A stretch of DNA of 64,000 bases from an uncultured Spirochaetota bacterium (GCA_963835575.1 CAWIGG010000002.1:96001-160000), one strand, 5' to 3'. Positions 45,273 to 63,286 are shown, numbered from the stretch's first letter. Numbers and translations are program-made. Notes: a model not told the origin generated them from the sequence alone.

Positions 45273-47942
45273 TCAGGGATTGGTCATGTCCGAAGCCAGA
45301 TTGAGCTGAATTGTATTGATGAAATTCGTGGGATTGATGACCTTGAACCCGCCGGGCAGAACATAGGCCGACTGGAAAAGGTAATTGGTGATCTTCGCGA
45401 TGGAAAGGTCCGGGTTAACCTGCCAGCCCATGACCAGCACGCCGGCAATGTAGGGAATAGTCCAGCTCGTGCCACCGGCGCCCGTGTATTGGTAGGAAAA
45501 AACGCCGCTGTTATATTCTTCGGCCTGGCTCCTGCGGGGTGCGGGCGCATAAAAGATATTCGGATCATTTTGGATCTGAGTGTTCGGTTCCCCCGGCATA
45601 AAGCTGGTAATATCATCCGGGTTTTCAAGATTACAACAGCCGACGTCGTTTATACGGTGCGCGCCACAATCCAGCACGAGGATATTCGAAGCGCTTGCCC
45701 TCTGGACGGCTTGGTCCCAGAGGATATTATTTGAGTCGGGCGAACCCGGTCCCGAAGGGGCGGCCGATACGGAGACAACCCGTATTTTCTGATCGGCGGA
45801 AAGGCCGGCGTTCTGCGCGACGATCCAGTCGAGCGCCTGAGCGAAGTATTTCGCATCCGCCAGCCACGTGGGTGTTGCGGCAAAATAGAGTCTGGCTCCG
45901 GGGGCCGTGCCGGTATGGGTCCCGACAAGAAGGCTGGCTACGGCCGGAGCGTGCATGCTGCCCACGTTCGCGGGCTGGCCGGTGCCGGTATCAAAATATG
46001 CCGCTATTTTATTGGAAAATTCCGGATGGCCGAAATCCTGGCAGAGGTTCTGGTCGATGACGGCCACGTTAATATTAGAGCCTGTTATGCCCAGCGAATG
46101 AAGATAATTGACCCCTAACCCAGGGTTTTTGCCCGATTCCAGGATCTGACCGGCGTAGGTCTGATCTCCCGGGCTGAAGATTGTCGTGCCGTCAAACCAG
46201 AGAGTTTTAATCAGATCGCAGCCCAAATTGTCCTTTGACAGATCTTTCCCTCTCACATCATCATAAGGTAAGACATCAATATTTGTTTCATAAAGGATAA
46301 CGTCGTCTATATAAATATTTCCAGTATTGCTCAGGCCAAGATGAAAGTTGAATCCGGCATTGGTATCGGTCGGGCTGTTCATTTTGAATAAGAAGGTAAA
46401 TGTCTGCATACTTTGAGTGAGATTAAAGTAATTAAGTGCATAGGAATTCCATGGAGGAGTGTCATATTGAAAAACCGCTCTGATCACTGTTAGGGCCGGC
46501 GAATCCGTCCTGGCCCTGAAGCTGAAAAAGTACAACTTCCCGTTCTCAAGGTCCAGCCCGTGCTGAGCTATGCCGACGTCCCAGATATTTGTCCCGCCGT
46601 TAATAACCGCCGCTTTCATTTCTCCGTTGACTATGCTCATGGAAGCGCTGCCGTTCTCATTCGTCCAGAAATCCCAGTACAGGCTGCCGGAGGAGAAATC
46701 CCCGTTCCTGATTATGTTGCCGCCGGCATAAGGGTATTCCGGGTTCTGGAGCACATTAATGTTCCCGGTCCATGGCACGACATTATACAGGTCATCCATA
46801 CAGCATTGCAGGGCCATTCCGTCCGAGCCCCAGTTGGTGTATGCCCAGAACGTGCTGTCCAGCGTCATATGCGCGGTATAAAAAGTACAGCCGTCGTCTG
46901 AAATATCGCAGAGCAGGTTTACTCCCCCCATGTTTATGTTTGACGACAGCTGGCGGACATTGGTAAAGCTTCCGTCACCCGCTATGTCGGCCGAGCAGAT
47001 GTAGGTCTGTATTAGGCGCGGGTCATGCAGGTCTGTAATGCCGGTATTCCCGAAATTATGGTTATTGGGTATGGGAGCGACAAAAGCGCTATTCGTCTTC
47101 ATGATGCCGCAGTCGCTCATGGTATTCAGACAGTTGAAAAAGGCCTTCTTCCCATCCAGCGTGATAGACATTCTTCCTATCCACCATAAGCCCATTCTCC
47201 CCGGAAAATCGGCCTCGGTATGCCATTTCCCGTCTATGTAATGAACGGGATTGAAGGGATTGATCTCGCCGCTCAGTTCGGATGGAGCGCCGAATGTCAC
47301 GCTGTTGAGTGCGGACTCATATACCCTGATCTTGATATAGTCGCCCTTGACGGCGTTTTCCACCCACCAGCAGAGGGTAAAGTAGAGAGTTTTCCTGGCG
47401 TCATTGTATGCCGGACAGAGGATCCAGGCGTCATTTGTACCTTTATACATAATCGATTTGACATAGTTCCCTATAGCGGAAAAATTCCAGAGACTGCAGG
47501 AAGCGAAATAGACGTAATTGTCATCCTCGGACTGATATTCATAGATGGAAAACTCCCCGCTGCCCCATCCGAAAAGCATGTACCTCTTCCCTCCAAGGTC
47601 AAAGGCGATCGGATAGGGGGCGGGCGGCGTTTCCTTGCCGTCAAAGAGAACTGTTTTTGAATTATAGGAAACGGTCCGAGATTTTCCCGCTCCGTCCGCG
47701 ACAGTGGCGCTTCCTGTTTTGTCGAAACCCGCAGGAATAACGCCTGCGGCTACTGTAGAACCGAAGACTTTCATGGAAACTTTATCCCCGCTTTTGCCTG
47801 TGATAAAGCAGGCGTACTGCGAACCGATTGGAGAGCCGCCGGTAACTGTCTGATTGCCGCCGCCTCTTCCATCGCCCGGCTGAACAGCGCATCCGGCCAG
47901 AATCCAGGCTGCAACTAAAACCCAGAGATAAATTTTCTTCAT
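45273..47942 (-). CDS. Lipoprotein: unknown N-domain + CBM4/9-like domain + S8 subtilase
   Basis: Lipobox LAGC; NIIRNGDFS...IYIDDV; triad VAVID / HAPAVASL / GTSWTIP. Confidence 0.85.
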   Translation of the reverse strand: MKKIYLWVLVAAWILAGCAVQPGDGRGGGNQTVTGGSPIGSQYACFITGKSGDKVSMKVFGSTVAAGVIPAGFDKTGSATVADGAGKSRTVSYNSKTVLFDGKETPPAPYPIAFDLGGKRYMLFGWGSGEFSIYEYQSEDDNYVYFASCSLWNFSAIGNYVKSIMYKGTNDAWILCPAYNDARKTLYFTLCWWVENAVKGDYIKIRVYESALNSVTFGAPSELSGEINPFNPVHYIDGKWHTEADFPGRMGLWWIGRMSITLDGKKAFFNCLNTMSDCGIMKTNSAFVAPIPNNHNFGNTGITDLHDPRLIQTYICSADIAGDGSFTNVRQLSSNINMGGVNLLCDISDDGCTFYTAHMTLDSTFWAYTNWGSDGMALQCCMDDLYNVVPWTGNINVLQNPEYPYAGGNIIRNGDFSSGSLYWDFWTNENGSASMSIVNGEMKAAVINGGTNIWDVGIAQHGLDLENGKLYFFSFRARTDSPALTVIRAVFQYDTPPWNSYALNYFNLTQSMQTFTFLFKMNSPTDTNAGFNFHLGLSNTGNIYIDDVILYETNIDVLPYDDVRGKDLSKDNLGCDLIKTLWFDGTTIFSPGDQTYAGQILESGKNPGLGVNYLHSLGITGSNINVAVIDQNLCQDFGHPEFSNKIAAYFDTGTGQPANVGSMHAPAVASLLVGTHTGTAPGARLYFAATPTWLADAKYFAQALDWIVAQNAGLSADQKIRVVSVSAAPSGPGSPDSNNILWDQAVQRASASNILVLDCGAHRINDVGCCNLENPDDITSFMPGEPNTQIQNDPNIFYAPAPRRSQAEEYNSGVFSYQYTGAGGTSWTIPYIAGVLVMGWQVNPDLSIAKITNYLFQSAYVLPGGFKVINPTNFINTIQLNLASDMTNP

Positions 47943-48116
47943 GGTATATCCTCCATTGATAAATGTTTTAAAATATTATTAAAAAATATCATAATCTATT
48001 ATCTCCATTGCAGGATTGCTGCCCGCTATTAGTGGTGGGTGAATACCGTAAAATCCGTTTATGCCGGCTTACCCTGTAAGCGATACCTATTGAGTCTATT
48101 AAATAATCCCTCATCC

Positions 48117-48149
48117 TATATATAATACGTTTTGAAACATTCATTTTCG
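48117..48149 (-). promoter_or_regulatory. Conserved ECF-like promoter motif, copy 1
   Basis: CGAAAATGAATGTTTCAAAACGTATTATATATA. Confidence 0.6.
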
Positions 48150-48245
48150 ATGAAGTTTGAAAAATATTTTTTTAAAAGAATGAGTGAAAACATGGATTGG
48201 ATATAACCGCTGCCGGTATTATTGAAGATAACGCCGTTGACAGTA

Positions 48246-50270
48246 TCATTCATTCGACACGCTGTTGCCGCCGGCTGTTACGGCGTCATGACGGATATCG
48301 CCGGGGGTGTTCAGCGCATTGATATCATCCAGGCCGATGTCGCCGTCGGCGAAATCGTGATAGAGATATTCCAGCGTATTGGTCAGGAAGATATTCCCGC
48401 TGATGGTTTTCCATGTATTATCCTCTGCTCCCTCATATAGAGCATATCCTCTGCCGTCTCCGCCGACCGTGCATGAAATGAGGCTGTTAAAATTGTATCC
48501 GCTGCCGAGATAGATGACTCCGTTTGCCGCGGAATTATACAAAAGCCTTGAATTTGTGATCATGGCGCAATTTGCTCCGCTGTCTAATAAATATATACCG
48601 CCGCCGATAAGCGCTGAATTACTGATGATATCGGCGCTGACGGTATTATTGCCGTCATAAAAAAGATCCCCTTCCAGATAGATCCCTCCACCGTTGGAAG
48701 AGGAATTATTAAGGATCAGGCCTTTGATCTCGCTCTGCGATCCGTTGAAGCTGATTCCGCCGCCCTGGTATAATGAAGAATTGCTGACAAGAGTGCAGTC
48801 AATTAAATTATAATATCCTCCGCCGTCGATACCGCCGCCGTAATAAGAACTGTTCTGGACAATAGAACAGAATAAGGTATTATAATATCCGTAAGAATTG
48901 AGCTGCTCCCATAAGTATATGCCTCCGCCGTAAGAGGCCTGGTTGCTGTTTATGACTGCCCGGATGATACAGTAATCGGCAGAAAGAAAGATCCCTCCGC
49001 CGAAGCCGCCGGATGTTGAAGCTGAGTTCCCGGCAAAAGTCCCTTCTATAATGGAATAATTCGCAGTTGATTCAGGGCCGTATAAATATAATCCTCCTCC
49101 ATTCTCTGCAGTATTGCTGCAGATAGAGGCGTCTATCTTATTATGTGTTCCATAATATATACAGAGACCGCCGCCATCGTTTCTGGCGAAATTACCGGCG
49201 GCGATGCCGGTGATAGTATTGTAATTGCCGCTTAAATAAAGCCCACCCCCATAACCGGAGCTGAAAAGGCTTTCACTACCGGCTGTATTACTTAATATTG
49301 AACCGGCAATCTTATTATGATTGCCATGAAGGAACATGCCCCCTCCGTATACCGCGGTATTATTCAATAATAAGCAGTCAATATCATTATAATGGCCGTA
49401 GTCATATGTTATTCCCAGGTAGTCGCCGCCTATCATGATTCCTCCTCCGTTGCTTGATGCGGTATTGCTTATATAAATGCCGCGGACCGTATTGGAATTG
49501 CCGCAAAGGTCCAGCCCGCCGCCGAATTGAGAAGCGTTGTTATTTTTCATGATGCAGTTTATGGTATTACCGGAGCCGTAAATATACACTCCGGCGCCAT
49601 AAAGGCCGCGGTTGTCATAAAGTTCGCAGTTCAGGGTGATGAGGCTTCCATGGCTGATATAGATGCCTCCTCCGTACCAGGAGACCTGGTTGCTCATGAT
49701 AACGCAGTTGGACAGGACGCAGAGCGATGAATATAATATTGATATGCCGCCGCCGTTCATATAATTTGTATAAAGATTGTCTTTTATGATAAAACCCTCG
49801 ATTGTAATTCCGGTTGAATCGCTGATTGAAATGATATGAAAAATACCGTTTGTCCCGTCCAGGACGCTTTCGCCCGTCTGAGCGGAGAAATCCCCGTTCC
49901 AGCCGCCCAGGACCATGATATTGTTTTTATTTGAGATCATGATGCCGTTTGTCCCGTCGCCGCGCAGTCCGGCGCCCCTGACATAGAGGCCGCTTCCGAC
50001 GTATATGACAGCGGCTGAATTCGGGGCCGAATCCAGCGCTTTCTGTATGCTGAGGAAGGGAAATTCCTTTGTCCCCGGGTTCGCGTCGCTGCCGTTCGCC
50101 GCGACGAAGTACTCCGCGTATGAAGGCGGTATGCCCAGAGAAGATTTGCCTTCCCCTGAAGTACTGCCGTTATTTTCGCCGTTTCCGGGCGAGAGCGCGC
50201 ATGAATTTATGATAAATAAAAAGGCCGGGATGATAATAGATAGATATTTTGTTCCTTTCTTAATTCGCAT
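48246..50270 (-). CDS. Right-handed beta-helix lipoprotein (DUF1565-like N-terminus, GGGIY repeats)
   Basis: Lipobox NSC-ALSPG; YFVAANGSDANPGTKEFPFLSIQKALD; many NxAxxGGGIY repeats; start reset to MRIKKG. Confidence 0.85.
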   Translation of the reverse strand: MRIKKGTKYLSIIIPAFLFIINSCALSPGNGENNGSTSGEGKSSLGIPPSYAEYFVAANGSDANPGTKEFPFLSIQKALDSAPNSAAVIYVGSGLYVRGAGLRGDGTNGIMISNKNNIMVLGGWNGDFSAQTGESVLDGTNGIFHIISISDSTGITIEGFIIKDNLYTNYMNGGGISILYSSLCVLSNCVIMSNQVSWYGGGIYISHGSLITLNCELYDNRGLYGAGVYIYGSGNTINCIMKNNNASQFGGGLDLCGNSNTVRGIYISNTASSNGGGIMIGGDYLGITYDYGHYNDIDCLLLNNTAVYGGGMFLHGNHNKIAGSILSNTAGSESLFSSGYGGGLYLSGNYNTITGIAAGNFARNDGGGLCIYYGTHNKIDASICSNTAENGGGLYLYGPESTANYSIIEGTFAGNSASTSGGFGGGIFLSADYCIIRAVINSNQASYGGGIYLWEQLNSYGYYNTLFCSIVQNSSYYGGGIDGGGYYNLIDCTLVSNSSLYQGGGISFNGSQSEIKGLILNNSSSNGGGIYLEGDLFYDGNNTVSADIISNSALIGGGIYLLDSGANCAMITNSRLLYNSAANGVIYLGSGYNFNSLISCTVGGDGRGYALYEGAEDNTWKTISGNIFLTNTLEYLYHDFADGDIGLDDINALNTPGDIRHDAVTAGGNSVSNE

Positions 50271-50289: not shown

Positions 50290-52098
50290 TTACCTGATGC
50301 CGGCGCCCTGGTTTGAAACAACCATGCTGTAGGAAGAACTGCCGGAAAAGGCATTGACGCAGACGATATGCCAGCCGGTTTTTTCAGCGTTAAATCCGAT
50401 ATGCTCGCTCTGGTTGCTGGATGCGGAATAACCAACTATGATATTGTCTGGATCGAACAGGTATAGATCGAAGTCGTTTGTCCCGTAGTTCCAGAGGTCG
50501 ATGGACAATAATCCGGGCGTCTCAACATAGAACTGATAAAAGGCGTTTGATTCCTCCAATAAAAAACTGCTTTGAATGCTGTTTGTGCCGGTCCATATTT
50601 CCGGCGGGAAGAGGTAATAATCAAGGAGAAAGCTGTCCCATGAGGAATCGATATTGAACAGAGTAAAGTTGCTGTAAATATAATCGACCCTGCAGCTGAT
50701 TGAGGAAGAACTTGCGAAAGTGCCTGCGTAAACGGCCATTCCGCTTGAATACGGGTTCCCGCTGAAAATATCTCCCGAAGGGTTATGCCATTCGTAAACG
50801 ACGGCGTTTTTTACCGCCGATTTTAACATTTCGGAATTACTGCTTATGGAGATTTTTTGGGCCAGGTCATAGATGTCGAGATGAAAATAGCCGCCGGCTT
50901 CAGTATCGATATACTGCTCTACTGAATTCACGATGGTATTCCATAAAGCGGGTTTTCTGTTGATATGGCCGGTGTTCCAAAGATAATTTGACAGGTCGGA
51001 AACGTACGAGTTAAAAGCCGCCATGATCGAATCCATTCTGGAAAGTTTATACGCGGCCAGCGTCGCGCCTCTTGTAGAAACATATCTCCTGCTATAAGAA
51101 TCAATGATATTTAAAATCAGGTCGGGGGCCGTCATTTTTGACTGGGAGTATTGTGAAAGCCAGTCGCTGTATGACCAGCCGCCAGCAAGTTCAACCTCCG
51201 GTGACGCGATGAGATAATCGGCTGTGTTCCTGAGTTCATAAGCCGTCTCAGCCATTCCCATAAGGCATGCGTCGAAACCGATTATTTTGATGCCTTTTCC
51301 TGTGAGGGCTGTCCGGACCTCGGAGTTGTAAAGCACATCGTTTCCGGATGTTTCGTCCCAGCAGACTTCTTTGGTAATATCTGATGCGCTTTTTTCTGTT
51401 TGGACGGGATAGGGGTTGTTCATTATTGCTGATGGGCTCTTTTTTAAAATTGCTTTTTTACCGTTGATATTTGTAAACTGGCCGGTTAATTCCGCTTCCG
51501 ATGATGTGTTTAATAAGAAACTGCCGGTGGTATTGACGCTTCCGGTACGGCTTCTCCATCCGCCGCCATGGTTCCACAGGATCAGCATATAACCTTCCGA
51601 GGGATAATTCGCCCTGACATAATCGACAAATCCGCTCAGGGTCTGGGGGTCGGCCATATTGAGCTCTTCGCTGTCGCCGCTGGTTGTCAGATTCACGCCG
51701 TTGATCAATCCGCCGAGCCGGGTTGAGCGTATGGTGTTGTCGGCGCCGTTCGGGTCATGGACAATTTTATAAAGCCGGGTACCGGTCCAGTCCCCGTCGG
51801 ATGTGTCATGGCCGGGCGCCCGGTCGAAAAGAACGATCACGTTCAGATCGGGATTGTTCAGGCCGGCCTCCATCTCGTTGAAATTCTGAAGCGCATACTG
51901 TTCCAGGTTGTTATCGCCGTCCAGATAGACCATTATGGTTTTTATGGTTGTGTTTGTGTCAGACAGCAGTTCGCCTGAAATAGTATCCCGGACTGGAGAG
52001 CTGTTTCCGCCGGCTGGCTGGAGAGAGCATGATGCGGCTATGACCGCCATCGTGATTAATGAGCAATAAAGAAAAACGGCTCTGATCTTCTCTTTCAT
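50290..52098 (-). CDS. Clostripain-family (C11) cysteine peptidase lipoprotein with C-terminal PPC-like domain
   Basis: MVYLDGDNNLE, LILWNHGGGW (His), GFDACLMG (Cys), NDFDLYL. Confidence 0.92.
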   Translation of the reverse strand: MKEKIRAVFLYCSLITMAVIAASCSLQPAGGNSSPVRDTISGELLSDTNTTIKTIMVYLDGDNNLEQYALQNFNEMEAGLNNPDLNVIVLFDRAPGHDTSDGDWTGTRLYKIVHDPNGADNTIRSTRLGGLINGVNLTTSGDSEELNMADPQTLSGFVDYVRANYPSEGYMLILWNHGGGWRSRTGSVNTTGSFLLNTSSEAELTGQFTNINGKKAILKKSPSAIMNNPYPVQTEKSASDITKEVCWDETSGNDVLYNSEVRTALTGKGIKIIGFDACLMGMAETAYELRNTADYLIASPEVELAGGWSYSDWLSQYSQSKMTAPDLILNIIDSYSRRYVSTRGATLAAYKLSRMDSIMAAFNSYVSDLSNYLWNTGHINRKPALWNTIVNSVEQYIDTEAGGYFHLDIYDLAQKISISSNSEMLKSAVKNAVVYEWHNPSGDIFSGNPYSSGMAVYAGTFASSSSISCRVDYIYSNFTLFNIDSSWDSFLLDYYLFPPEIWTGTNSIQSSFLLEESNAFYQFYVETPGLLSIDLWNYGTNDFDLYLFDPDNIIVGYSASSNQSEHIGFNAEKTGWHIVCVNAFSGSSSYSMVVSNQGAGIR

Positions 52099-52152: not shown

Positions 52153-53826
52153 CTATTCATTTGACACACTATTGCCTTCAGCGGTTATCGCGTCATGGCG
52201 GATATCGCCGGGAGTGTTCAGCACGCCGATTTCATCCAGGCCGGTGTCTCCGTCGGCAAAATCATGATAGAGATACTCCATTGTGTTGGTTAAAAATATA
52301 TTATCGACGAGAGTATTGTTGGAACTATCCGACTGATACTCATAAATGCCATAACCCGGACCCTGCCCGCCGATGGTGTTTCCGATAAACTGATTATTGC
52401 TGCAATTTGTTCCGATGCATATGCTGCCATGGCCAGCCCGGTTGAACAGGAGCAGTGTATTTGTAATCATGTTGTTAATAACGGGATAACCGGCTGACAC
52501 GTTGACAAAATAAATGCCGCCGCCGTATTGGCTGGAATTGCTGCTGATATTTCCGCTGATTGTATTAAGCCAGCTGTCGATAATTGTCAATCCTCCGCCG
52601 TTGCTTTCGGCCGTATTGCCGCTTATTGTGCAGTCAACAGTATTATAATGGCTGTATGCTATGAGCATACCGCCGTAATTGTTCCGGGCATAGTTGCCGC
52701 TGATTGTACAATTGATATCAGAATAAGAGTTATAATAAATCTGCAGTCCGCCGATGTTTGTCGCAGTGTTATTGCTGATTATTCCGCTGACCGTATTATT
52801 TGAACCCGAAATCATATTGATCCCGCCGATTCCGAAGGCTGTGTTATTGATAACGCTTGCGTTGATATTGTTGAAAGAAGCCTGATCCAGATATATTCCG
52901 CCGCCGCTGTAGGCTGAATTGCCGCTGATGACGCCGCCGATCGAATTATGAGAGCTGTGGCCGATGTATATTCCTCCTCCGTATATGTCCAATGTGTTGG
53001 TTAAATTGCCGCTGTAAATCCCGCTGATTGTATTGAAAGAGGTGTAGTCAATGAGTAATCCGCCTCCGGAATTGCTTGTGAAGCTTCCGGATATATTGAA
53101 ATTGGAACCGGACATAATTTCCATTCCGCCGCCGAAGTAGGCCGAATTATGGGAGACCGCCCCGCTGACAATGACATTGGAACAGTAAAAAAAACATAAT
53201 CCCCCTCCTCTTCCGGAAGAGGTATTATTGGTGATGACGATATTTGTGAATTGGCAGGAAACGGATGATATCGCTAAGATTCCGGCGCCCAGCCAATTCC
53301 ATCCTTCATTGATGCTGCCCTGAAGCCTCCATCCGTTTCTTACGACAAAACCGTCGAAAAGGAAGCCTGAGGTGTTTGATAAGAAGAGGATGTGAACAAG
53401 CGTTTTATTGCCGTCCAGTTCGCTGTATCCGTTACGGGAGGTGAAATCCGCGTCCCATCCGCCGAGGAGATGAAGATTGTTTTTATTGAGTATGACGACC
53501 CCCGTTCCTATTTCGGCGTAATTCAATCCGCTTCCGTTTGTGTAAATACCCTCCGCTACATTGATAACGGCGCCATCCGCCGCTGTATCAACGGCCCTCT
53601 GGATGTTCATGAACGGATGCTCTTTCGAGCCGCTATTCAGGTCGCTGCCGTTCGTGGCGACATAAATTTCGCTCAGCGTGCCCGGACTGCTGGATGAACT
53701 GCTGGAGGAACTTGTTCCGCCTCCTCCGCTACTTCCGCTGCCGGGCTGAAGCGTGCAGGATTCCGATAAAAAGAAAAATGCCGTCAATATGAGTATTGGG
53801 GCAAATAAATGTTTCCTGTCATTCAT
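52153..53826 (-). CDS. Right-handed beta-helix lipoprotein
   Basis: SC-TLQPG; IYVATNGSD...IQRAVD; LLGGWDADF; GGGIY repeats; conserved ...GNSVSNE end. Confidence 0.85.
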   Translation of the reverse strand: MNDRKHLFAPILILTAFFFLSESCTLQPGSGSSGGGGTSSSSSSSSSPGTLSEIYVATNGSDLNSGSKEHPFMNIQRAVDTAADGAVINVAEGIYTNGSGLNYAEIGTGVVILNKNNLHLLGGWDADFTSRNGYSELDGNKTLVHILFLSNTSGFLFDGFVVRNGWRLQGSINEGWNWLGAGILAISSVSCQFTNIVITNNTSSGRGGGLCFFYCSNVIVSGAVSHNSAYFGGGMEIMSGSNFNISGSFTSNSGGGLLIDYTSFNTISGIYSGNLTNTLDIYGGGIYIGHSSHNSIGGVISGNSAYSGGGIYLDQASFNNINASVINNTAFGIGGINMISGSNNTVSGIISNNTATNIGGLQIYYNSYSDINCTISGNYARNNYGGMLIAYSHYNTVDCTISGNTAESNGGGLTIIDSWLNTISGNISSNSSQYGGGIYFVNVSAGYPVINNMITNTLLLFNRAGHGSICIGTNCSNNQFIGNTIGGQGPGYGIYEYQSDSSNNTLVDNIFLTNTMEYLYHDFADGDTGLDEIGVLNTPGDIRHDAITAEGNSVSNE

Positions 53827-54359: not shown

Positions 54360-55616
54360 TTAAAAGTTTGTATAAGGTCCCGGCGTATTGTTTACAACTG
54401 TCTCGAAATCATTCCCTGTCATAATCCCGTTCGTTGCGATGCCGTAATTGGTGTTGAAGGAGACCGTGCCGGCAATGATGTTGTTGGTGGCGTTCTGCAG
54501 GGCGATCCCCCCTCCGACGGTAGCGTAATTACTCATAATATCGCCCATAATGGAATTCCAGGCCGAGCCGCCTTCGATAAACAATCCGCCGCCGAATTGG
54601 GCGGAATTGTTGTAAACGGCGCCGCTGATCAGGTTATGGCTGGATTGATAGATATCCATTCCTCCTCCAAAACCGCCTGGCACGTTATTGCAGTAGACCG
54701 CGGAGCTGATTGAGTTGTACATTGAATTAGCAATTCCCAGCCCCCCTCCGTAAGCTGATGATGTATTATTATAGACGGAACCGCTTATTGTGTTCGAGTC
54801 CGCGGACAATAAATAAATTCCACCACCGTATTGCGCCGTGTTGCTGCAAATTACAGCATTAATTGTATTATAACTTGAATTATACAGATAAATTCCTCCT
54901 CCGCCTACGCCCACTGTCGAATTGTTGCAGATGATTCCGCTGATCATAATAAGGCTTGATAAGAAGATACTGATTCCTCCGCCGTCAGATCCGTTTTTAT
55001 TATTATTATTACTGCATATGAAATTGGTGATGATGGCATTGGTTACATACAGAAGATACATTCCCCCGTCATCGCCTGTCCCGCCGGTGAACACAAACCC
55101 GTCCAGCTGAATGTTCGTGACATTATTTATGAAGATGAGCTGGTAAGGCCATGGCTTCGTATGGGAATCCAGAACGCTCCTCCCTGCCTGGTTGTTGAAG
55201 CCGGAGTCGCATCCGCCGTAGAGACGGATATTGTTGTTTGATATCGTGAGACCGGGACTGTCTGTCGATAATCCCGCTCCCTGGGTGTACGTACCCTGTC
55301 CGACGTAGATTTTCGTGAAACCCAGCGCAGCGGCGTTCGATACCGCCTTCTGGATGGTCAGCAGGGGCGCTGCCTTGTTCGTGCCCACGCTCGCGTCACT
55401 TCCGGTTGTTGCGACATAAACGATGTTGTTGCCCTGGGGCAGCGGAACGGGGCTGCTTACAGACGAACTGCCGTCTCCTGTTGAAGAACTGCCTCCTCCT
55501 CCTCCGCCATTCCCGCCGCCCGGTTGGAGAGTGCAGGCTGTAAACAAAGCCATTATCAGTACAAAAACTGTGAGAGCATAAAAAACCGCGGGGATATGAT
55601 CTTTAATCCTATTCAT
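54360..55616 (-). CDS. Right-handed beta-helix lipoprotein (short form lacking the conserved C-terminal cap)
   Basis: AC-TLQPG; VYVATTGSD...IQKAVS; GGGIY repeats. Confidence 0.85.
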   Translation of the reverse strand: MNRIKDHIPAVFYALTVFVLIMALFTACTLQPGGGNGGGGGGSSSTGDGSSSVSSPVPLPQGNNIVYVATTGSDASVGTNKAAPLLTIQKAVSNAAALGFTKIYVGQGTYTQGAGLSTDSPGLTISNNNIRLYGGCDSGFNNQAGRSVLDSHTKPWPYQLIFINNVTNIQLDGFVFTGGTGDDGGMYLLYVTNAIITNFICSNNNNKNGSDGGGISIFLSSLIMISGIICNNSTVGVGGGGIYLYNSSYNTINAVICSNTAQYGGGIYLLSADSNTISGSVYNNTSSAYGGGLGIANSMYNSISSAVYCNNVPGGFGGGMDIYQSSHNLISGAVYNNSAQFGGGLFIEGGSAWNSIMGDIMSNYATVGGGIALQNATNNIIAGTVSFNTNYGIATNGIMTGNDFETVVNNTPGPYTNF

Positions 55617-55640: not shown

Positions 55641-57215
55641 TCATTCGTTCGACACGATGTTGCCGGAGGCTGTCGAGGCGTCATGCCTGGGATCATTAAC
55701 TGTATTCAGCACAGCGATTTCATCCAGGCCGGTGTCGCCGTCGGCAAAATCATGGTAAAGTAAGCCCAGCGTATTGGTTAAAAAGATGTTGCCGGTCATG
55801 GTATGGTTGGTAAAATCGAGTCCCATTTCATAAATCCCGTATCCGGCCCCCTGTCCGCCGATGGTATTGCCGGCTAAGATATTAAAACTGTTATTGGTAA
55901 TTAAGCTCGTATAGACTGTGTTGGTCCCGATGCAGATCGCTCCATGATCGGCCTGGTTGTAAAGAAGGCGGGAATTGGTAATCAGATTATTTGTGGTCAC
56001 CTGTCCTATATATATTCCGCCTCCGTTTGCCGCGGAATTGCTGCTGATATTCCCTGTTATAGTATTGTTCCATAAGAATTCGAGAAATATCCCGCCGCCG
56101 CATATTGCCGTGTTGCCCGTTATATTCGCGTCGATGGTGTCGTAAAAAACCCAATAAATATAAACTCCTCCTCCTAATTGAGCGGTGTTGCCGGTTATAT
56201 TTCCATTAATGACGCTGTGGGATGTGCCGTTTTCAACATATAATCCGCCCCCTCTATTTGCGGAATTTCCGGCTATCACGGCGTTTACGGATGTAAAGGG
56301 GCAATTATTGAAATAGATACCTCCGCCGTCATAAAGGGCTGTGTTGCTGCTGATATTTCCGCCGACGGTATTGACAGGGCTCCAGAAAAAGTATATTCCC
56401 CCGCCCTGGACGGCGTTATTTCCGGTAATGCCGCAGTTGATTACCGTATTGGAAGAGTAATCGATTTCCAGGCCGCCCCCGGAATTGCTGTTGACGTTCC
56501 CTGTGATTGCTGTGTTCGTGCAGTGGTCCGCCAACATGCCTCCGGCATAGCCTGCCGAATTATTATAAATATTCATATTAATGGTATTATAGAAGCATTT
56601 AGATATATAAATGCCTCCGCCGCTTTCCTTTGCAATGTTATTACTGATAATACCGTTTGAAAGGGTGCAGTTTGAGGATTTTATCACAAAAACCCCTCCG
56701 CCCTTGTATTCTGATGGGACGTTCGTTGCGTTTCCGTTCCTCAGCACAAATCCATCCAGAAAGATATGGGATGAATTGGATATAAAGATTATATGGTAAA
56801 GCTCTTTATTACCATCCAGCTCGCTATAACCGTTCGTTTCAGAAAAGTCTTCATTCCAACCTCCAATGAGCCGGATGTTTTTTTTATTTAGAATGACGAT
56901 ACCCGATCCTGTTTCAGAATAATTCAGCCCGTCCCCATTGGTATAGATACCCTGTGCCACATTGATTACAGCCCCGTCTGCCGCCGTATCGACAGCTTTT
57001 TGAATGTTTTTGAATGGTTCGGTTTTATTGGCGCCGCTGTTAGTGTCGCTGCCGTTTGTTGCGACATAAACTACACTTAGAGTGCCCGGACTGCTGGATG
57101 AAATACCAGTGGAGCTTGTATTGCCTCCACCGTTCCCGCTACCCGGCTGGAGCGTGCAGGAATAAAATACTAGTGCGAGAACCAAAAAGATTGCCCCATA
57201 GAAATATTTTGACAT
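55641..57215 (-). CDS. Right-handed beta-helix lipoprotein
   Basis: SC-TLQPG; DUF1565-like start; GGGIY repeats; ...GNIVSNE end. Confidence 0.85.
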   Translation of the reverse strand: MSKYFYGAIFLVLALVFYSCTLQPGSGNGGGNTSSTGISSSSPGTLSVVYVATNGSDTNSGANKTEPFKNIQKAVDTAADGAVINVAQGIYTNGDGLNYSETGSGIVILNKKNIRLIGGWNEDFSETNGYSELDGNKELYHIIFISNSSHIFLDGFVLRNGNATNVPSEYKGGGVFVIKSSNCTLSNGIISNNIAKESGGGIYISKCFYNTINMNIYNNSAGYAGGMLADHCTNTAITGNVNSNSGGGLEIDYSSNTVINCGITGNNAVQGGGIYFFWSPVNTVGGNISSNTALYDGGGIYFNNCPFTSVNAVIAGNSANRGGGLYVENGTSHSVINGNITGNTAQLGGGVYIYWVFYDTIDANITGNTAICGGGIFLEFLWNNTITGNISSNSAANGGGIYIGQVTTNNLITNSRLLYNQADHGAICIGTNTVYTSLITNNSFNILAGNTIGGQGAGYGIYEMGLDFTNHTMTGNIFLTNTLGLLYHDFADGDTGLDEIAVLNTVNDPRHDASTASGNIVSNE

Positions 57216-57231: not shown

Positions 57232-59004
57232 TTATTTTATAACAGCATCCTGGTTCGAAACAACCAGGTTGAATGGACCCGCGCCGTCAAAGGAATATAC
57301 CCTGATCACATACCAGCCGGCCGTAGTGGAATTATGGACGATCCGTTCGGCCGGGTTTACGGTCAGCGATGAGTCGGCATAGTTCCCGGAGCCGTCGTAC
57401 ATATAGAGATCGAAATCATTGGCGCCGAAATTGTATAAATCGACTGAAAAAGAGCCCGGCGCGGAGACATAAACCTGGTAGTTCTTTTCCCCGCCGGCGG
57501 GTATATTCCCGGTTTTAATGGAATTTGCCGTTATCCATTCATAGGGCGGGAATCCGTAGAGGTCCGCCAGATAGGTGTCCCATGCGCTGTCCTGATTGAA
57601 CAGAGTAAAGTTGCTGAAGGCGTAATCGTCCCTCAGATATGTCCCGCTGCCTGTCGTCGTACCGAAATAGACGGCCATGCCGTGCGAGCGGGTGTCGTCG
57701 GCGTATATATCCCCGCCGCCTGAGTGGTGCCATTCATAGGCGACAACGGCATTAACTGCGTTTTTAAGGTCCGCCGACAGACTGCCCTTGTTCACCGTAT
57801 CGGCCAGGTCGTAGAGGTCGATATGGTAGCCGCTGCCGTAATACACTTCGCATCCGGAGAGAATTGAATTGTATCTTCCTGATGCGGTATTATTATATCC
57901 CGGGTTCCATAAGTCGCCTGATAAGGCGGCTGTATAAGCGTCAAAAGCCGTTTTGAGGTTGTTTATTTTTGACAGGTCATAGGCCGCGAGGGTTGTACAG
58001 CATGTGTCCGCGTATCTTTCCTTGTAGGAATTGATGATGTTAGTGGCCAGAGCCGCGACGGTCAATGACGTGCCGCAGAACCGGGAAAGCCACACGTCGT
58101 ATTCCCAGCCGTCGCCCGGTTCCGTGTCCGCCGAGGCTATCATATATTCCGCCACGTCCTTGAATTCATACGCGGCTTCGATCATGCCCATATAGCAGGC
58201 GTCAAACCCGAGCACCTTGATGCCTTTTCCCGCCAGGGCGGCCCTGATCTCGGAATTATAAAGCCTGTCATTCCCGGACGATTCGTCGACGCAGGCGCCT
58301 TTAAGGGGGTCCAGAGTATTATCATTATTGACCGGATTTATTAAAAGACCTGAATTTTGACTTTTCGCTTCCGGGATACTTTTAGAATGGGTCAGGGGAG
58401 GCAGGGCAAAGGGATTTTGATTGCTTACCGGGCGGCTTAAATTTCCGGGAGAGCTTCTCCAGCCGTCGCCGTGGTCCCAGAGAATGAGCATATAATTCTG
58501 GGATGGGTAATTCGCCTCGACAAAATCGACAAAATCGGAGAGGGTTTTCCCGTCTCCCATATTCAGATCCTGGTTATTGCCGGTTGTCGTCAGCGCGACC
58601 CCGTTTATCGTGCCGCTGAGGCGCTTTGAGCGGATCGTGCTGTCAAAGCCGAATGGGTCGTGCAGGACCTCGTAAAGCCGCGCACCCGTCCAGTTGCCCT
58701 GGCTTGTGTCATAACCGGGAGACCTGTCGAAGAGAACAATGACTTTAACAAGAGGGTTGTTCAGGCCGGCTTCCATCTCGTTAAAATCATCGAGCCCGTA
58801 TGATTCCAGGTTGTTATCGGCGTCCAGGTATACCATGATGACCTGGATTTTGTTTGTGTCTTTCATCATATCCGATAAGCCCGCAGAGGATGTGCCTGAT
58901 GTGCCGCCGCCGGTGTTCCCTCCCGGCGCCATAGAGCACCCGTACAGATGAATAAACAAAATGCTGATAATTATAAATTTTATATAGGATAATATTTTAT
59001 TCAT
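57232..59004 (-). CDS. Clostripain-family (C11) cysteine peptidase lipoprotein with C-terminal PPC-like domain
   Basis: MVYLDADNNLE, LILWDHGDGW, GFDACYMG, NDFDLYM. Confidence 0.92.
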   Translation of the reverse strand: MNKILSYIKFIIISILFIHLYGCSMAPGGNTGGGTSGTSSAGLSDMMKDTNKIQVIMVYLDADNNLESYGLDDFNEMEAGLNNPLVKVIVLFDRSPGYDTSQGNWTGARLYEVLHDPFGFDSTIRSKRLSGTINGVALTTTGNNQDLNMGDGKTLSDFVDFVEANYPSQNYMLILWDHGDGWRSSPGNLSRPVSNQNPFALPPLTHSKSIPEAKSQNSGLLINPVNNDNTLDPLKGACVDESSGNDRLYNSEIRAALAGKGIKVLGFDACYMGMIEAAYEFKDVAEYMIASADTEPGDGWEYDVWLSRFCGTSLTVAALATNIINSYKERYADTCCTTLAAYDLSKINNLKTAFDAYTAALSGDLWNPGYNNTASGRYNSILSGCEVYYGSGYHIDLYDLADTVNKGSLSADLKNAVNAVVAYEWHHSGGGDIYADDTRSHGMAVYFGTTTGSGTYLRDDYAFSNFTLFNQDSAWDTYLADLYGFPPYEWITANSIKTGNIPAGGEKNYQVYVSAPGSFSVDLYNFGANDFDLYMYDGSGNYADSSLTVNPAERIVHNSTTAGWYVIRVYSFDGAGPFNLVVSNQDAVIK

Positions 59005-59016
59005 AAAATTCTCCTC

Positions 59017-60399
59017 TTAATAATTAGAAACGATGTTGCCGCCCGCGAACGCGCTTCCCGAATAGGAGCTGTCATTAACGGCGGCAATGGAAACCGTACT
59101 GCCTTTTTTAGAGTCATAATAAAGGTAAGCCAATTTATTGGTAAAGAATACGTTGTCCTTTATGGTCTGGCCTGTAATATCGAAGAGATAATATTCGTAA
59201 ATCGCGCAGCCGGAACCGTCCCCGCCGATATAGTTGCTGACGATCTGGACATTATTTGCTTCCTCCATGTATATAGCATTGGTTTCATGGTTATTGATGA
59301 TCGTAGTGCCGGTTATCAATATGCTTTTAGTTTGAAAGAGATCAATTACGCCTTCTCCATTCAACTCTGATGCTGTATTATCAAAAATCAATGCGGTAAT
59401 GACATTCCCGTCGCCGTACCAGTCGCTTATTCCGCTGATATATTTTACCGTATTGCTGAAAATGCTTCCTGTAACGGCAACATTCTTGCAGTACTGCAGA
59501 TGCAATGTATAGCCTGACGCGGCCGAAAAATTGTCGTATATATCCGCTTTTAAGGAAATATTATAGCCGTTGAAAACCTCCGCTCCAACTCCCTCGTTCC
59601 AGCTGCCTGTTATCGAATTGCCGGAAATAGACCCGGATATTACGGCGTTTGAGACCTCAGCCAGAAATAATCCGCCGCCGCAGCCGGTTGAGCAGTTATC
59701 TCTGACGGTCCCGTCAAAAATGAGATTATAACAGTCCATAATGAATATTCCGCCTCCGTACGCGAGTGAATAATTGCTCATAACGGCTATATTCGACAGG
59801 CTCAAATTAATCACATTATTGACATACAACCCGCCTCCATAACCGGTGCCGAATCCGGTATACACCCCATTGGTCCCGCCTTTGATGACAAAGCCTTCAA
59901 TCGCGATGTTTTTCGAGTCCCGGATGCAGACGATATTGGACAATACCTGCATGCCGTCCAGAACGCTCGCGCTTCCGCGGCTTGAATAATCCGTGTTCCA
60001 GCCCCCGCAGAGGTACAGGGCCGGGGATTTGTCGATCAGGAGGCCGCTGCCGTTTATGTTGGTCAGTCCGGAATTGACTGTATATGTTCCAGCCTGAACG
60101 AAGACATTTGTATAATGGGACGCTTTCGCGATCTCCAGCGCCCTCTGGATTGTCAGGACCGGCGCGGCAAGCGTGCCGTCTGCGGTGTCGAGGCCCGAGG
60201 GGGAAACATACACAGGCCCTTCGGAATACAGGCTGGTTAACGAGGATGATGAGCCGGAAGAACCCGTCGAACTCGCCGCGGACACTGCTGAAGACGCCGC
60301 GCCGCTGGAATTTCCTTCCGCCGCCGGGGATACGGAACATCCCTGATAAAAGGCTGTTATTGTAATAATTGAGCAGAAAATTAAAATGGATTTTTTCAT
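59017..60399 (-). CDS. Right-handed beta-helix lipoprotein (divergent)
   Basis: GC-SVSPA; VYVSPSGLDTADGTLAAPVLTIQRALE; GGGLY repeats; ...GNIVSNY end. Confidence 0.85.
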   Translation of the reverse strand: MKKSILIFCSIITITAFYQGCSVSPAAEGNSSGAASSAVSAASSTGSSGSSSSLTSLYSEGPVYVSPSGLDTADGTLAAPVLTIQRALEIAKASHYTNVFVQAGTYTVNSGLTNINGSGLLIDKSPALYLCGGWNTDYSSRGSASVLDGMQVLSNIVCIRDSKNIAIEGFVIKGGTNGVYTGFGTGYGGGLYVNNVINLSLSNIAVMSNYSLAYGGGIFIMDCYNLIFDGTVRDNCSTGCGGGLFLAEVSNAVISGSISGNSITGSWNEGVGAEVFNGYNISLKADIYDNFSAASGYTLHLQYCKNVAVTGSIFSNTVKYISGISDWYGDGNVITALIFDNTASELNGEGVIDLFQTKSILITGTTIINNHETNAIYMEEANNVQIVSNYIGGDGSGCAIYEYYLFDITGQTIKDNVFFTNKLAYLYYDSKKGSTVSIAAVNDSSYSGSAFAGGNIVSNY

Positions 60400-60430: not shown

Positions 60431-61489
60431 TTATTTTATGACCGCTATGGAATAGGCGCGCGTGTCGTTCGTTCCTTCGCCGGTGAGGTCTGTCCGGCTT
60501 GTCCCCGTCCAGTAGCAGGCCGTGATATTGGAACCGGTATTATAGTATCCTGCGGTATAAACCGTGCCGTCCAGAACGGCTATCGCATAGGCGATGGCGT
60601 TGCTGCCCGGCAGGTCCGTTTTAACGGTCCCGGTCCAATAGCATGCGACGCTGACCGTACCGATTAAGTAGCATCCCGCGGTGTAGACCGTCCCTCCGGA
60701 CAGCGTCAAGGCATACGCGTAAGTATTATAACCTGTAATCAGGTCGGTTTTGTTTGTTCCGGCCCAGTAACATGCCCGGTAATCCGGGTATATGCCGTAA
60801 GTCCCGGCGGTATAATTGGTGCCGTTTAAAACGGCTATCCCGTAACCCCATGCGTCATTTGTGCCGGTGCCGGGCAGGTCTGTCCTGTTGGTACCGGTCC
60901 AAGTGCAGGCGATCCTGTTGGACGGGCAATAGCTTCCGGCCGTATAGACCGTTCCGTTCAATACCGTTATTGACCGGGCCAGGGCCGAATGCGTTCCGTC
61001 TCCCGGCAGGTTTGTCAGGTTTGGGCCTTCCCAGGCGCCGGCGTTATATGTGGAGCCGGCATAGTATTCGCCGGCCGTATAAATAATTCCTTCCGACAGG
61101 GCTATGGAATAGACCCGGCTGTCAGAGCCGGGATTCAAATCCGCTTCGTTCGTGTTTGACCAGAAACAGGCGACGTCAAACGAACTATTCCAATAATATC
61201 CGCTCGTGTAGACCGTTCCGCCGGAAACGGCTATGGAATTGGCCTGGGAATAAGTGAAGCCGGGAATTTTTGTGATATTTGTGCCAGTCCAGTAGCAGGC
61301 TTTCGCACTGCCGGCTCCGTTTACGTAATAGCCGACGGTGTAGACTGTTGCCCCCTGAGCGCCTCCTCCGTTGTTGCTGCCGCCGCTTCCGCCGCCTCCC
61401 GGCTGGATCGTACAGGTGATCAATAAAGCTGTCATCATTACTAAACTTGCAAAGAAAACCGAAAAGATATATTTTTTGATCCTGTTCAT
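60431..61489 (-). CDS. Lipoprotein with seven ~44-aa repeats (probable beta-propeller)
   Basis: TC-TIQPG; repeat AxSIAVxxGTVYTAGxY...ACYWTGTNxTDLPG. Confidence 0.85.
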   Translation of the reverse strand: MNRIKKYIFSVFFASLVMMTALLITCTIQPGGGGSGGSNNGGGAQGATVYTVGYYVNGAGSAKACYWTGTNITKIPGFTYSQANSIAVSGGTVYTSGYYWNSSFDVACFWSNTNEADLNPGSDSRVYSIALSEGIIYTAGEYYAGSTYNAGAWEGPNLTNLPGDGTHSALARSITVLNGTVYTAGSYCPSNRIACTWTGTNRTDLPGTGTNDAWGYGIAVLNGTNYTAGTYGIYPDYRACYWAGTNKTDLITGYNTYAYALTLSGGTVYTAGCYLIGTVSVACYWTGTVKTDLPGSNAIAYAIAVLDGTVYTAGYYNTGSNITACYWTGTSRTDLTGEGTNDTRAYSIAVIK

Positions 61490-61528: not shown

Positions 61529-63169
61529 TCATTCATTCGAAACGCTGTTGCCGTAGGTTGTAAAGGCGTCATGCCTGGGATCGTTTGGGGTGTTCAGCAC
61601 GCCGATTTCCGTCAGGCCGATATCGCCGTCAGCGAAGTCGTGGTAGAGATAATCCAGGGTATTTGTGAGGAATATATTATTGGCGATGGTCTGTCCGGAG
61701 ACGTCTTTCTTATATTCATATATTCCGTATCCTGTGCCCTGCCCGCCGATTGTGCTGTCGATGATCAGGTTGGGGAAATTGGTTTCCATGCAGATCACGC
61801 CTCCCGCCCCGCTGTTATAAAAGAGAAAAGCATTGGTGATGAGATTAAGCCTGGAAAATTCCTGCAGGTAAATGGCGCCTCCCCATTGCGCGGTATTGCT
61901 GACTATCCTGCCTGTTATGGTATTGCTGACGCAGGACCGGATGAGAATACCGCCGCCGATAGACGCGGCCGTGTTCCCGGTTATGTTCCCGCTGATAAGG
62001 CAGTTGGAACTAAATTCGATCTGGATGCCCCCTCCGTAATTGGCGGTATTGCCGGTTATATTCCCGCTGATAATATTGGAAATCATGAACTGACCGGAAA
62101 AAGCGAAATCGATCCCGCCTCCCACTGAAGAGGCCGAATTGAGAGTGATATTCCCTGTGACCGTGTTGAAGGAGCATCTTCCCTCAAACTCAACCCCTCC
62201 GCCGGCTAGTGCGGAATTGCTTGAAACAAGGGCGCTCATAATATTGAACGAGCTGTTCCAGAAATAGATCCCGCCGCCATATAGATCGCAGGAATTGGAC
62301 ATAATACAGCCGCCGACTGTATTGGAAACGCCTCCTATCGAGCCACCGCCGCCGTTCGCGCCTGAGGTGTTCCAGCAGATAAAGGCATTAATGTTATTGA
62401 ATGAGCCCGATACTGAAACTCCGCCTCCATTTTGTAAGCCTGCGTGATTACTGCAGATGACCCCTTCTATGGTATTGCTTGTCCCATATACTATAATTCC
62501 TGTACCAGGGTTTCCGGTTACGGTCAGATCGAATGTGTTTTCCCGGCCGCTGATATCCGCAATCCCGCCGCCGGAATTATTGCTGACGACGGTATTGGAC
62601 AGCGTACAGTGCGAGCAGTTTGTCATAACAATTCCCCCTCCGTAATTGTCGGGAGAGGCAGAGTTTGTCGCGCTGCCGTTCCTGATGACAAATCCGTCGA
62701 TGAGGATATGAGATGAATTAAGGATGAAGATGATGTGATAGAGTAGTTTATTTCCGTCAAGTTCGCTGTATCCGGAGCGGGATGTAAAATCCGCGTCCCA
62801 GCCGCCGAGGAGACGGATGTTATTCTTGTTGATGATGACGGCGCCTGTCCCCGTCTCCGGGATATTCAGGCCGTTTCCGTTCGTATAAACGCCTAGCGCT
62901 ACGTTAATTGAAGCCCCGTCCGAAGCCATGTCGAGAGCCTTCTGAAGGTTCAGGAAAGGCTCCGTCTTATTCGTGCCGCTGTTCGTGTCGCTGCCGTTCG
63001 AGGCGACATAAACAACGCTCAATGTGCCGGGATTGCTGGAAGAAACGCCCGTGGAACTTGTATTACCTCCGCCGTTCCCGCCGCCCGGCTGGAGCGTGCA
63101 GGAATAAGTTACAAAGAAAAATGCCGTTAAAATGAGTATTAGGATAATCAACTGTTTCTGATAATTCAT
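61529..63169 (-). CDS. Right-handed beta-helix lipoprotein
   Basis: SC-TLQPG; VYVASNGSD...LQKALD; GGGI repeats; ...GNSVSNE end. Confidence 0.85.
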   Translation of the reverse strand: MNYQKQLIILILILTAFFFVTYSCTLQPGGGNGGGNTSSTGVSSSNPGTLSVVYVASNGSDTNSGTNKTEPFLNLQKALDMASDGASINVALGVYTNGNGLNIPETGTGAVIINKNNIRLLGGWDADFTSRSGYSELDGNKLLYHIIFILNSSHILIDGFVIRNGSATNSASPDNYGGGIVMTNCSHCTLSNTVVSNNSGGGIADISGRENTFDLTVTGNPGTGIIVYGTSNTIEGVICSNHAGLQNGGGVSVSGSFNNINAFICWNTSGANGGGGSIGGVSNTVGGCIMSNSCDLYGGGIYFWNSSFNIMSALVSSNSALAGGGVEFEGRCSFNTVTGNITLNSASSVGGGIDFAFSGQFMISNIISGNITGNTANYGGGIQIEFSSNCLISGNITGNTAASIGGGILIRSCVSNTITGRIVSNTAQWGGAIYLQEFSRLNLITNAFLFYNSGAGGVICMETNFPNLIIDSTIGGQGTGYGIYEYKKDVSGQTIANNIFLTNTLDYLYHDFADGDIGLTEIGVLNTPNDPRHDAFTTYGNSVSNE

Positions 63170-63253
63170 GATTTATTTCTCCTTAATATATCTAAGATAT
63201 TTGGGCAATGATAATAAATAAACACAGAAATGTTTCAAATCAGTTCGCTATCT

Positions 63254-63286
63254 TATATATAATACGTTTAGACATATTCGATTTTG
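63254..63286 (-). promoter_or_regulatory. Conserved ECF-like promoter motif, copy 3
   Basis: CAAAATCGAATATGTCTAAACGTATTATATATA. Confidence 0.6.

What the first reader, a model, noticed from the sequence alone, without database searches (positions are those of the whole stretch)
45273..63286. 18-kb array of ten surface lipoproteins: beta-helix paralogues interleaved with proteases
Seen: ten co-oriented lipoprotein genes in transcription order bH, propeller, bH, clostripain, bH, bH | bH, clostripain, bH | subtilase+CBM (bH = beta-helix). The bH-clostripain-bH triplet occurs twice. Both clostripains keep the His/Cys dyad and the subtilase keeps D/H/S. No transporter, regulator or secretion gene lies inside. 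Known: C11 peptidases can act as maturases of other exported proteins (fragipain), and GGGI/GGAI-type beta-helix repeats occur in adhesins such as chlamydial Pmp. Inference: an expanded, co-regulated surface adhesin or effector system with dedicated processing proteases. I do not recognise it as a described system.
Basis: partly seen in the sequence, partly recalled or inferred. Interest (0 to 1): 0.78.

Follow-up and report, generated by a model that had tools for sequence, protein, structure and literature searches.

The report
Spirochaete surface-lipoprotein cluster with shared promoter
An uncultured spirochaete keeps ten lipid-anchored protein genes in a row (six predicted rod-shaped binding proteins, one predicted propeller, three proteases) behind three copies of an undescribed promoter-like signal that also precedes about twenty other, mostly exported-protein genes, so this is likely one co-regulated stick-and-digest surface kit rather than adhesins with their own processing proteases.

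Summary
The array is real: ten minus-strand lipoprotein genes in the stated order, with intact C11 dyads and an S8 triad. The proposed maturase link is not supported. Only 1 of 33 other C11 loci has a beta-helix gene nearby, and 0 of 18 beta-helix loci have a C11. One relative has 35 beta-helix matches and no C11 was found in it. The C11s look Arg/Lys-specific, yet 5 of 6 beta-helix tethers lack Arg/Lys. The 'triplet' is not a duplicated unit. The beta-helices fold as right-handed helices with no conserved charged residue in the rungs, so they are likely binders, not lyases.

Three likely transcription units each start behind a fixed-spacing motif (A/T tract, CAAAA-N15-CGTATTAT). It has 25 strong copies in the genome (0 in the reversed control), mostly before exported proteins. 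Single copies precede similar genes in a few relatives. The best candidate regulator is an ECF sigma with a FecR-type anti-sigma, encoded beside another beta-helix gene (inferred). This scan has noted other tandem beta-helix lipoprotein arrays in other spirochaetes; the motif was not found among its earlier notes.

The parts
63249..63321 (-). Promoter-like motif copy 1 (A/T tract, CAAAA-N15-CGTATTATA), about 100 nt before bH1
   Evidence: repeat family D19
61529..63169 (-). bH1, 546-aa lipoprotein, right-handed beta-helix (GGGI rungs), recent paralogue of bH3 and bH5
60431..61489 (-). 352-aa lipoprotein, predicted seven-bladed beta-propeller of ACYW repeats; three paralogues elsewhere in the genome
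   Evidence: model pLDDT 90.7; Foldseek hits are Kelch-type propellers
59017..60399 (-). bH2, 460 aa, the most divergent beta-helix; DUF1565 hit on N-cap only
57232..59004 (-). C11a, clostripain-family lipoprotein protease with PPC domain; His178/Cys270, Asp before the Cys, activation linker containing Arg/Lys
55641..57215 (-). bH3, 524 aa; mature part modelled as a right-handed beta-helix with N-cap and C-cap
   Evidence: pLDDT 93.6
54360..55616 (-). bH4, 418 aa, lacks the C-terminal cap of the others; last gene of unit 1
54100..54250 (.). Long nested hairpin (about -73 kcal/mol) between units 1 and 2; partial copies elsewhere in the genome
53899..53971 (-). Promoter-like motif copy 2, before bH5
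52153..53856 (-). bH5, 567 aa (probably 557 from the second ATG)
50290..52098 (-). C11b, second clostripain-family lipoprotein with PPC; His177/Cys278; 46% identical to C11a
48246..50270 (-). bH6, 674 aa, the longest beta-helix (about 15 rungs)
48112..48184 (-). Promoter-like motif copy 3, before the subtilase
45273..47942 (-). 889-aa lipoprotein: unannotated 360-aa N-domain (about 49% identical to two LamG lipoproteins of this genome), CBM4_9 and S8 peptidase (D630/H664/S826)
45196..45229 (-). Intrinsic-terminator-like hairpin closing the array (coordinates counted by hand from the printed sequence)

Best explanation
These ten lipoprotein genes are a locally expanded cluster within a genome-wide set of exported-protein genes that share one promoter-like motif and are likely switched on together, so that predicted non-catalytic binding rods and propellers would be displayed beside proteases that likely digest outside protein rather than process the rods. 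Shown: gene order, lipid-anchor signals, shared tether, catalytic residues, three motif copies at the unit starts, and the genome-wide distribution of the motif. Predicted: beta-helix and propeller folds. Inferred: surface location; binding through variable aromatic rung positions; self-activation of the C11s at Arg/Lys in their own linker; transcription by an alternative (ECF) sigma factor, best candidate G000:C4:942608 with its FecR-type anti-sigma (about 45% within this reading); growth of the array by tandem duplication of promoter-plus-gene units with older paralogues accreting.
For: Motif: three copies, each before the first gene of a unit (D19). Count peaks at one spacer length (16 sites versus 0-3 at the other 11 lengths). 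25 matrix sites score >=20 against 0 in the reversed genome and 0 in four column-permuted matrices. 11 of 15 non-seed sites scoring >=15.9 precede a signal-peptide gene, against 421 of 1944 leader genes (p about 3e-5). Targets include LamG, CBM4-amylase, omptin, OmpA, SH3/WG and propeller proteins. Relatives have single copies before a bH locus (G002), a C11 lipoprotein (G014), an amylase-like lipoprotein (G024) and a lipoprotein array beside the sigma orthologue (G006). Of 15 sigma70-family genes only C4:942608 has motif copies within 4 kb (scores 24 and 35; next best 11), and a bH gene follows its anti-sigma in both G000 and G006. bH: confident right-handed helix; no acidic, basic or His column conserved in >=50% of 19 rows between positions 118 and 419; rung number varies from about 3 to 15 by a rough motif count. 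Lineage-specific expansions recur (G012, G005, G004). C11 enzymes self-mature after Lys/Arg (10.1101/522870, passages).
Against: No expression data were obtained, so co-transcription and promoter activity are unproven. The signal-peptide classifier was my own crude script, the score threshold was picked after seeing the list, and two of the 11 sites point to the same gene (10 of 14 distinct genes). Only 6 of 37 tether-type lipoprotein genes have the motif directly upstream, and the cellulase island has none. In relatives the strict pattern is close to chance (41 matches versus 24 control in 40 genomes), most hits there are not before exported genes, and six further sites examined led to no exported gene. 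G002 and G014 carry motif sites but only 42-43% homologues of the candidate sigma. The motif copy inside the sigma gene could be a coding coincidence. The motif can also be read as a sigma70 promoter (TTCAAA-N18-TATTAT). The best fold matches are carbohydrate-active enzymes. No ligand or substrate is identified.
Confidence: 0.62

Rival explanations
1. One reading: the C11 proteases are dedicated maturases that cleave the neighbouring beta-helix lipoproteins to activate or shed them.
For: Each C11 sits between bH genes with 12-54 nt gaps. Fragipain activates another exported protein (10.1101/522870, passage). bH1, 3, 5 and 6 share an Arg 14 residues from the C-terminus and bH6 has one Lys in its tether. 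One C11 homologue of 2580 aa carries a beta-helix domain. G017 has a bH 2.7 kb from its C11, on the other strand.
Against: 1 of 33 C11 loci (26 with >=2.5 kb on both sides) has a bH and 0 of 18 bH loci have a C11. G012 has 35 bH matches and no C11 found. This genome's third C11 and its four other bH genes are unlinked. Five of six tethers have no Arg/Lys, and Arg+Lys is only 2-4% of the mature chains.
Confidence: 0.1
2. The beta-helices are carbohydrate-binding or carbohydrate-active modules serving this plant-fibre degrader, for example gripping pectin or other cells' polysaccharide, with idiosyncratic active sites in some paralogues.
For: Top fold matches are AlgE4, GH/PL enzymes and tailspikes (Z up to 29.8, identity <=19%). 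The genome encodes GH9-CBM2 lipoproteins. The S8 carries a CBM4. Rungs expose Tyr/Phe/Trp. Four of 120 listed relatives of the S8 domain are fused to beta-helix or Pmp-repeat domains.
Against: No conserved Asp/Glu/Lys/Arg/His along the rungs. PfbA and Vag8 adhesins and NosD score in the same Z range. The cellulase island lacks the motif. Glycan binding without catalysis is compatible with the best explanation; only catalysis is argued against.
Confidence: 0.15
3. The motif is not a regulon signal but a strong housekeeping (sigma70, UP-element) promoter copied along with the 5' ends of lipoprotein genes during duplication and domain shuffling.
For: Two array copies score as TTCAAA-18-TATTAT and TCGAAA-17-TATTAT. 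Some copies share spacer sequence (C2:149919 with C2:657031; three copies before related lipoproteins). The copy number is high only in this genome.
Against: Most spacers are unrelated while C, AAAA, CG and TATTAT are kept. Targets include unrelated omptin, OmpA and SH3 genes without the tether. Copies precede comparable genes in other families of the order.
Confidence: 0.13

Closest known systems
Leptospira LIC10774/LIC10365 (DUF1565, NF047854) surface lipoproteins
   Same: Spirochaete lipoproteins with the same N-cap motif; LIC10774 is reported as a calcium-binding surface protein that binds host components (PMC13066512 and PMC8657130, passages)
   Different: Only weak partial hits (bH5 27.6 bits against a cut-off of 380; bH2 N-cap only); long GGGI rung arrays and a C-cap; the host is an uncultured fibre degrader
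Chlamydial Pmp passenger domains (PF02415)
   Same: GG[AG][ILV]-type rungs forming a beta-helix, where the motif is structural (PMC11166332, passages)
   Different: Lipid-anchored, no autotransporter barrel, few FxxN motifs, no PF02415 hit in the six array proteins
Clostripain family C11 (clostripain, thetapain, iotapain, fragipain, PmC11)
   Same: His/Cys dyad, Asp before the Cys, lipoprotein signal, activation linker with Arg/Lys
   Different: C-terminal PPC domain, 90-100-residue His-to-Cys spacing; no evidence of a dedicated client protein
SigI-RsgI regulons of cellulolytic clostridia (AAA-N13/14-CGWA; PMC4711584, passages)
   Same: A-tract plus CGTA promoter ahead of exported proteins in a fibre degrader
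   Different: Spacer is 15, no SigI in the genome, the cellulase island lacks the motif; the candidate is an ECF with a FecR-type anti-sigma
FecI-FecR-type ECF systems, including Leptospira LIC_12757/LIC_12756 (PMC12655853, passages)
   Same: ECF sigma followed by a FecR-domain gene
   Different: The anti-sigma also has PEGA and PQQ-type propeller domains and is flanked by an unannotated exported protein and a bH gene rather than a TonB-dependent receptor

Membership tests
Clostripain family C11 | PF03415 above cut-off | tested here: met
   193 and 198 bits against 25.8
Clostripain family C11 | His/Cys dyad with the Asp before the Cys (S1 role of this Asp recalled) | tested here: met
   HGxGW and FDAC in both
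Clostripain family C11 | Self-maturation and Arg/Lys cleavage | not testable with these tools
   linkers contain Arg/Lys; needs an assay
Dedicated C11 maturase-client pair (fragipain-like role) | Conserved linkage or fusion of protease and client | tested here: not met
   1 of 33 C11 loci, 0 of 18 bH loci, 1 of 240 listed homologues fused
Dedicated C11 maturase-client pair (fragipain-like role) | Accessible Arg/Lys site in the client's tether or pro-region | tested here: not met
   0 in 5 of 6 tethers
Subtilase S8 | PF00082 and Asp/His/Ser triad | tested here: met
   34.7 bits against 21.8; D630/H664/S826
Subtilase S8 | Oxyanion-hole Asn (AAGN motif, recalled) | tested here: inconclusive
   the likely equivalent reads LDCGAH; two relatives also lack AAGN; no structure of this domain was made
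Beta-helix polysaccharide lyases, hydrolases and epimerases | Right-handed parallel beta-helix | tested here: met
   model of bH3 and fold searches
Beta-helix polysaccharide lyases, hydrolases and epimerases | Conserved catalytic Asp/Glu/Lys/Arg/His on the groove | tested here: not met
   none conserved at >=50% in positions 118-419 of 19 rows; single paralogues were not docked
Chlamydial Pmp | C-terminal autotransporter barrel | tested here: not met
   no Pfam hit; the model ends in a small cap
Chlamydial Pmp | GGA(I/L/V) alternating with FxxN | tested here: not met
   3-13 GG[AG][ILV] but only 1-4 FxxN per protein
LIC10774/LIC10365 family (NF047854) | Score above cut-off | tested here: not met
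   27.6 against 380
SigI-dependent promoter | AAA-N13/14-CGWA and a sigI gene | tested here: not met
   spacer 15; TIGR02895 best 24.6 against 185
ECF sigma regulon | Bipartite fixed-spacing motif, with copies at a sigma/anti-sigma locus | tested here: met
ECF sigma regulon | Transcription depends on that sigma | not testable with these tools
   needs start-site mapping and reconstitution

The most novel reading that the evidence does not exclude
The array is the output arm of an undescribed trans-envelope sensing circuit of Brevinematales: a surface beta-helix lipoprotein and an unannotated 450-480-aa exported protein relay contact with a particle or cell to a FecR/propeller anti-sigma, without a TonB-dependent receptor. 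The released ECF sigma then turns on about 25 CAAAA-N15-CGTATTAT promoters, coating the cell with variable binding rods and proteases, a diderm counterpart of clostridial SigI-RsgI sensing.
Probability: 0.15. Interest if true: 0.68.

Novelty: new variant of a known kind. Interest (0 to 1): 0.36.

Why it matters
It removes a tempting but unsupported 'adhesin plus maturase' system. It replaces it with a concrete, testable promoter motif and candidate sigma factor for surface proteins in a poorly known spirochaete order; my searches found no paper pairing that order with sigma factors. If confirmed, it defines how a fibre-degrading spirochaete controls a second surface programme separate from its cellulases. 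The protein families themselves are common, so the significance is moderate.

Tried and rejected
No RNA holder was listed for the array. One small-share DNA run gave five short pieces, three of them without differences, and none bridged genes, so it was not used for habitat or expression. Rfam found nothing in 44000-64000. The generic sigma70 and terminator scan was at or near shuffle level. The search for related loci with the C11 pair returned only 3 loci, one of them the same contig as L214, so it was counted once. The C11 tree did not resolve whether C11a and C11b are sisters. The one-clade test for the six bH was not run (script error), so only the bH1/3/5 clade is claimed. The S8 N-domain found no Pfam or PDB match and only weak PD40-like Atlas leads below 0.9. 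The Atlas hits for the propeller were unnamed clusters or carried unreliable automatic names. No complex prediction was run, because I do not claim binding and an enzyme-substrate pair is a poor use of it. I listed the genome's tyrosine recombinases to ask whether the motif is the 'integron promoter module' of e1-9909382. A sequence look-up found no match, but I could not compare the two directly. Literature searches found no description of a clostripain/beta-helix cluster or of this motif; subscription journals are not covered. Papers were read as passages only, and no supplements were opened.

Full report
Observation. The window is G000:C2:96001-160000 of a 4.39-Mb genome. Its C11 proteins are closest to records named Brevinematales or Spirochaetes, so I treat it as a Brevinematales-type spirochaete. 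All ten genes are present on the minus strand in the order given. Each begins with a signal peptide, a Cys, an x-x-x-P motif and a 22-43-residue Gly/Ser-rich tether. Pfam gives C11+PPC twice, CBM4_9+S8 once, and NosD/Beta_helix for 4 of 6 beta-helix (bH) proteins; DUF1565 hits only the N-cap of bH2. The C11 dyads and the S8 triad are intact. Gaps are 12-54 nt except 503 nt (bH4 to bH5, with a long hairpin) and 303 nt (bH6 to S8), and a terminator-like hairpin follows S8. The array is therefore probably three units. GC3 is 0.52-0.63 against a genome median of 0.49 (10th-90th percentile 0.35-0.61), so there is no sign of recent foreign origin.

Proteins. Mature bH3, modelled on a 19-row alignment, is a right-handed beta-helix (pLDDT 93.6). 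Fold matches are generic: AlgE4 Z 29.8, tailspikes, NosD, Vag8 and PfbA, all at <=19% identity. Conserved charged residues lie only in the N-cap and C-cap. None reaches 50% between positions 118 and 419, while positions after GGGI are often aromatic and variable, and rung number ranges from about 3 to 15 by a rough motif count. In Pmps the GGA(I/L/V) motif is structural (PMC11166332, passages). The repeat family is very large: 42,278 representatives at E<=1e-10, many of them giant proteins. The propeller model is confident (pLDDT 90.7). The S8 domain belongs to a widespread subfamily, and 4 of 120 listed relatives carry beta-helix or Pmp repeats. Its N-domain is shared with two LamG lipoproteins of this genome.

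Test of the maturase idea. C11 was found in 17 of 41 genomes and bH in 24 of 41, counting G000. I fetched up to 10 kb on each side of 33 distinct C11 loci from relatives, the wider phylum and one other phylum, 26 of them with >=2.5 kb on both sides. One has a bH gene, 2.7 kb away on the other strand. None of 18 bH-centred loci, chosen from among the listed matches, has a C11. G012 has 35 bH matches and no C11 found (95% complete). In G000 the third C11 and four further bH genes are unlinked. Among 240 listed C11 homologues one carries PF13229. C11 enzymes mature after Lys/Arg (10.1101/522870, passages). Both array enzymes keep the Asp before the Cys and have Arg/Lys in their own linkers, but 5 of 6 bH tethers have none. 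bH1, bH3 and bH5 form a clade (100/99), while bH2, bH4 and bH6 fall elsewhere, so the 'triplet' is not a duplicated block. Separate lineage-specific expansions appear in G012, G005 and G004. The C11 tree is unresolved for C11a and C11b.

What does unite the genes. A 73-nt non-coding element precedes bH1, bH5 and S8. Its conserved parts are an A/T tract, (T)TTCAAAA and CGTATTATA at fixed spacing. Genome-wide there are 16 sites at that spacer against 0-3 at other lengths. A matrix finds 25 sites scoring >=20, against 0 in the reversed genome and in four permuted matrices. Of 15 non-seed sites scoring >=15.9, 11 precede genes my crude script calls exported (10 of 14 distinct genes), against 421 of 1944 leader genes; the threshold was set after viewing the list. 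Targets include LamG, CBM4-amylase, DUF5122 propeller, omptin, OmpA and SH3/WG proteins. The genome has at least 38 lipoproteins with the same tether, but only 6 of 37 re-tested have the motif directly upstream, and the cellulase island has none. In relatives the strict pattern is near chance (41 against 24 control in 40 genomes, against 19 versus 0 in G000). Most hits there are irrelevant. Full-looking copies do sit before a bH locus in G002, the C11 lipoprotein in G014, an amylase-like lipoprotein in G024 and a lipoprotein array in G006. So bH and C11 genes appear to share a control signal rather than a partnership.

Regulator. Of 15 sigma70-family genes only C4:942608 has copies within 4 kb, one divergent and one inside the gene upstream of the anti-sigma. 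It is an ECF followed by a FecR/PEGA/PQQ-propeller gene and a bH gene, and the same layout with the divergent motif recurs in G006. This is suggestive only. Other motif-bearing relatives have just 42-43% homologues, the internal copy may be a coding coincidence, and the motif can be read as sigma70 TTCAAA-N18-TATTAT. The resemblance to SigI promoters (AAA-N13/14-CGWA; PMC4711584, passages) fails on spacing and on the absence of sigI.

Mechanism and verdict. Most likely (0.62) a signal releases an ECF sigma, the three units are transcribed with about twenty other surface genes, and the lipoproteins are displayed on flexible tethers. Rods and propeller would bind particles, cells or matrix, while self-activating C11s and the CBM-bearing subtilase digest nearby protein. 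Export to the surface, ligands and substrates are inferred. Tandem paralogous lipoprotein arrays are a known feature of spirochaetes (recalled; this scan's notes e1-2388196, e1-3558142 and e1-6996378 describe others, unchecked). The closest characterised relative by N-cap is Leptospira LIC10774 (PMC13066512, PMC8657130, passages). Searches found no description of this cluster or motif. New variant of a known kind; interest 0.36.

Noticed in passing
window about 44948-44962, minus strand: A sigma54-like -24/-12 site (TGGCAC-N5-TTGC, consensus recalled) lies just upstream of the 218-aa exported gene at 44254-44910, outside the array.
   Followed up: no
window about 48194-48244, minus strand: Right after the bH6 stop, another frame reads like one beta-helix rung, possibly the remnant of a lost or recombined bH gene.
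   Followed up: no
G000:C4:941114-945503, C2:1912148-1916121, C5:375475-379453; L069: A recurring cassette: unannotated 450-480-aa exported protein, ECF sigma, FecR/PQQ-propeller anti-sigma, each beside a tethered lipoprotein. The first protein family has up to 16 matches per genome in the order and sits next to bH genes in several relatives.
   Followed up: partly
G000:C2:1029020-1029685 and C3:198576-199247: Two 221-223-aa subtilase-like genes without signal peptide or an obvious catalytic-Ser segment, each behind a copy of the motif.
   Followed up: partly
window 54100-54250: Nested palindrome (about -73 kcal/mol) with a partial copy on C6, like a REP or miniature element; possibly the family of e1-2194056.
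   Followed up: partly
window 46731-47828: A 360-aa domain with no Pfam or PDB match, shared by the subtilase and two 1100-aa LamG lipoproteins (G000:C2:267989, C3:281977), all behind the motif.
   Followed up: partly
proteins P0281-P0340: Many long C11 homologues are fused with S8 and dockerin-type (PF00404) domains, so C11+S8 pairing in one chain is common elsewhere.
   Followed up: no
window 18794-22572: A 680-aa exported protein with an N-terminal helical or membrane region next to an amidohydrolase-like gene, downstream side of a transposase gene; not examined.
   Followed up: no
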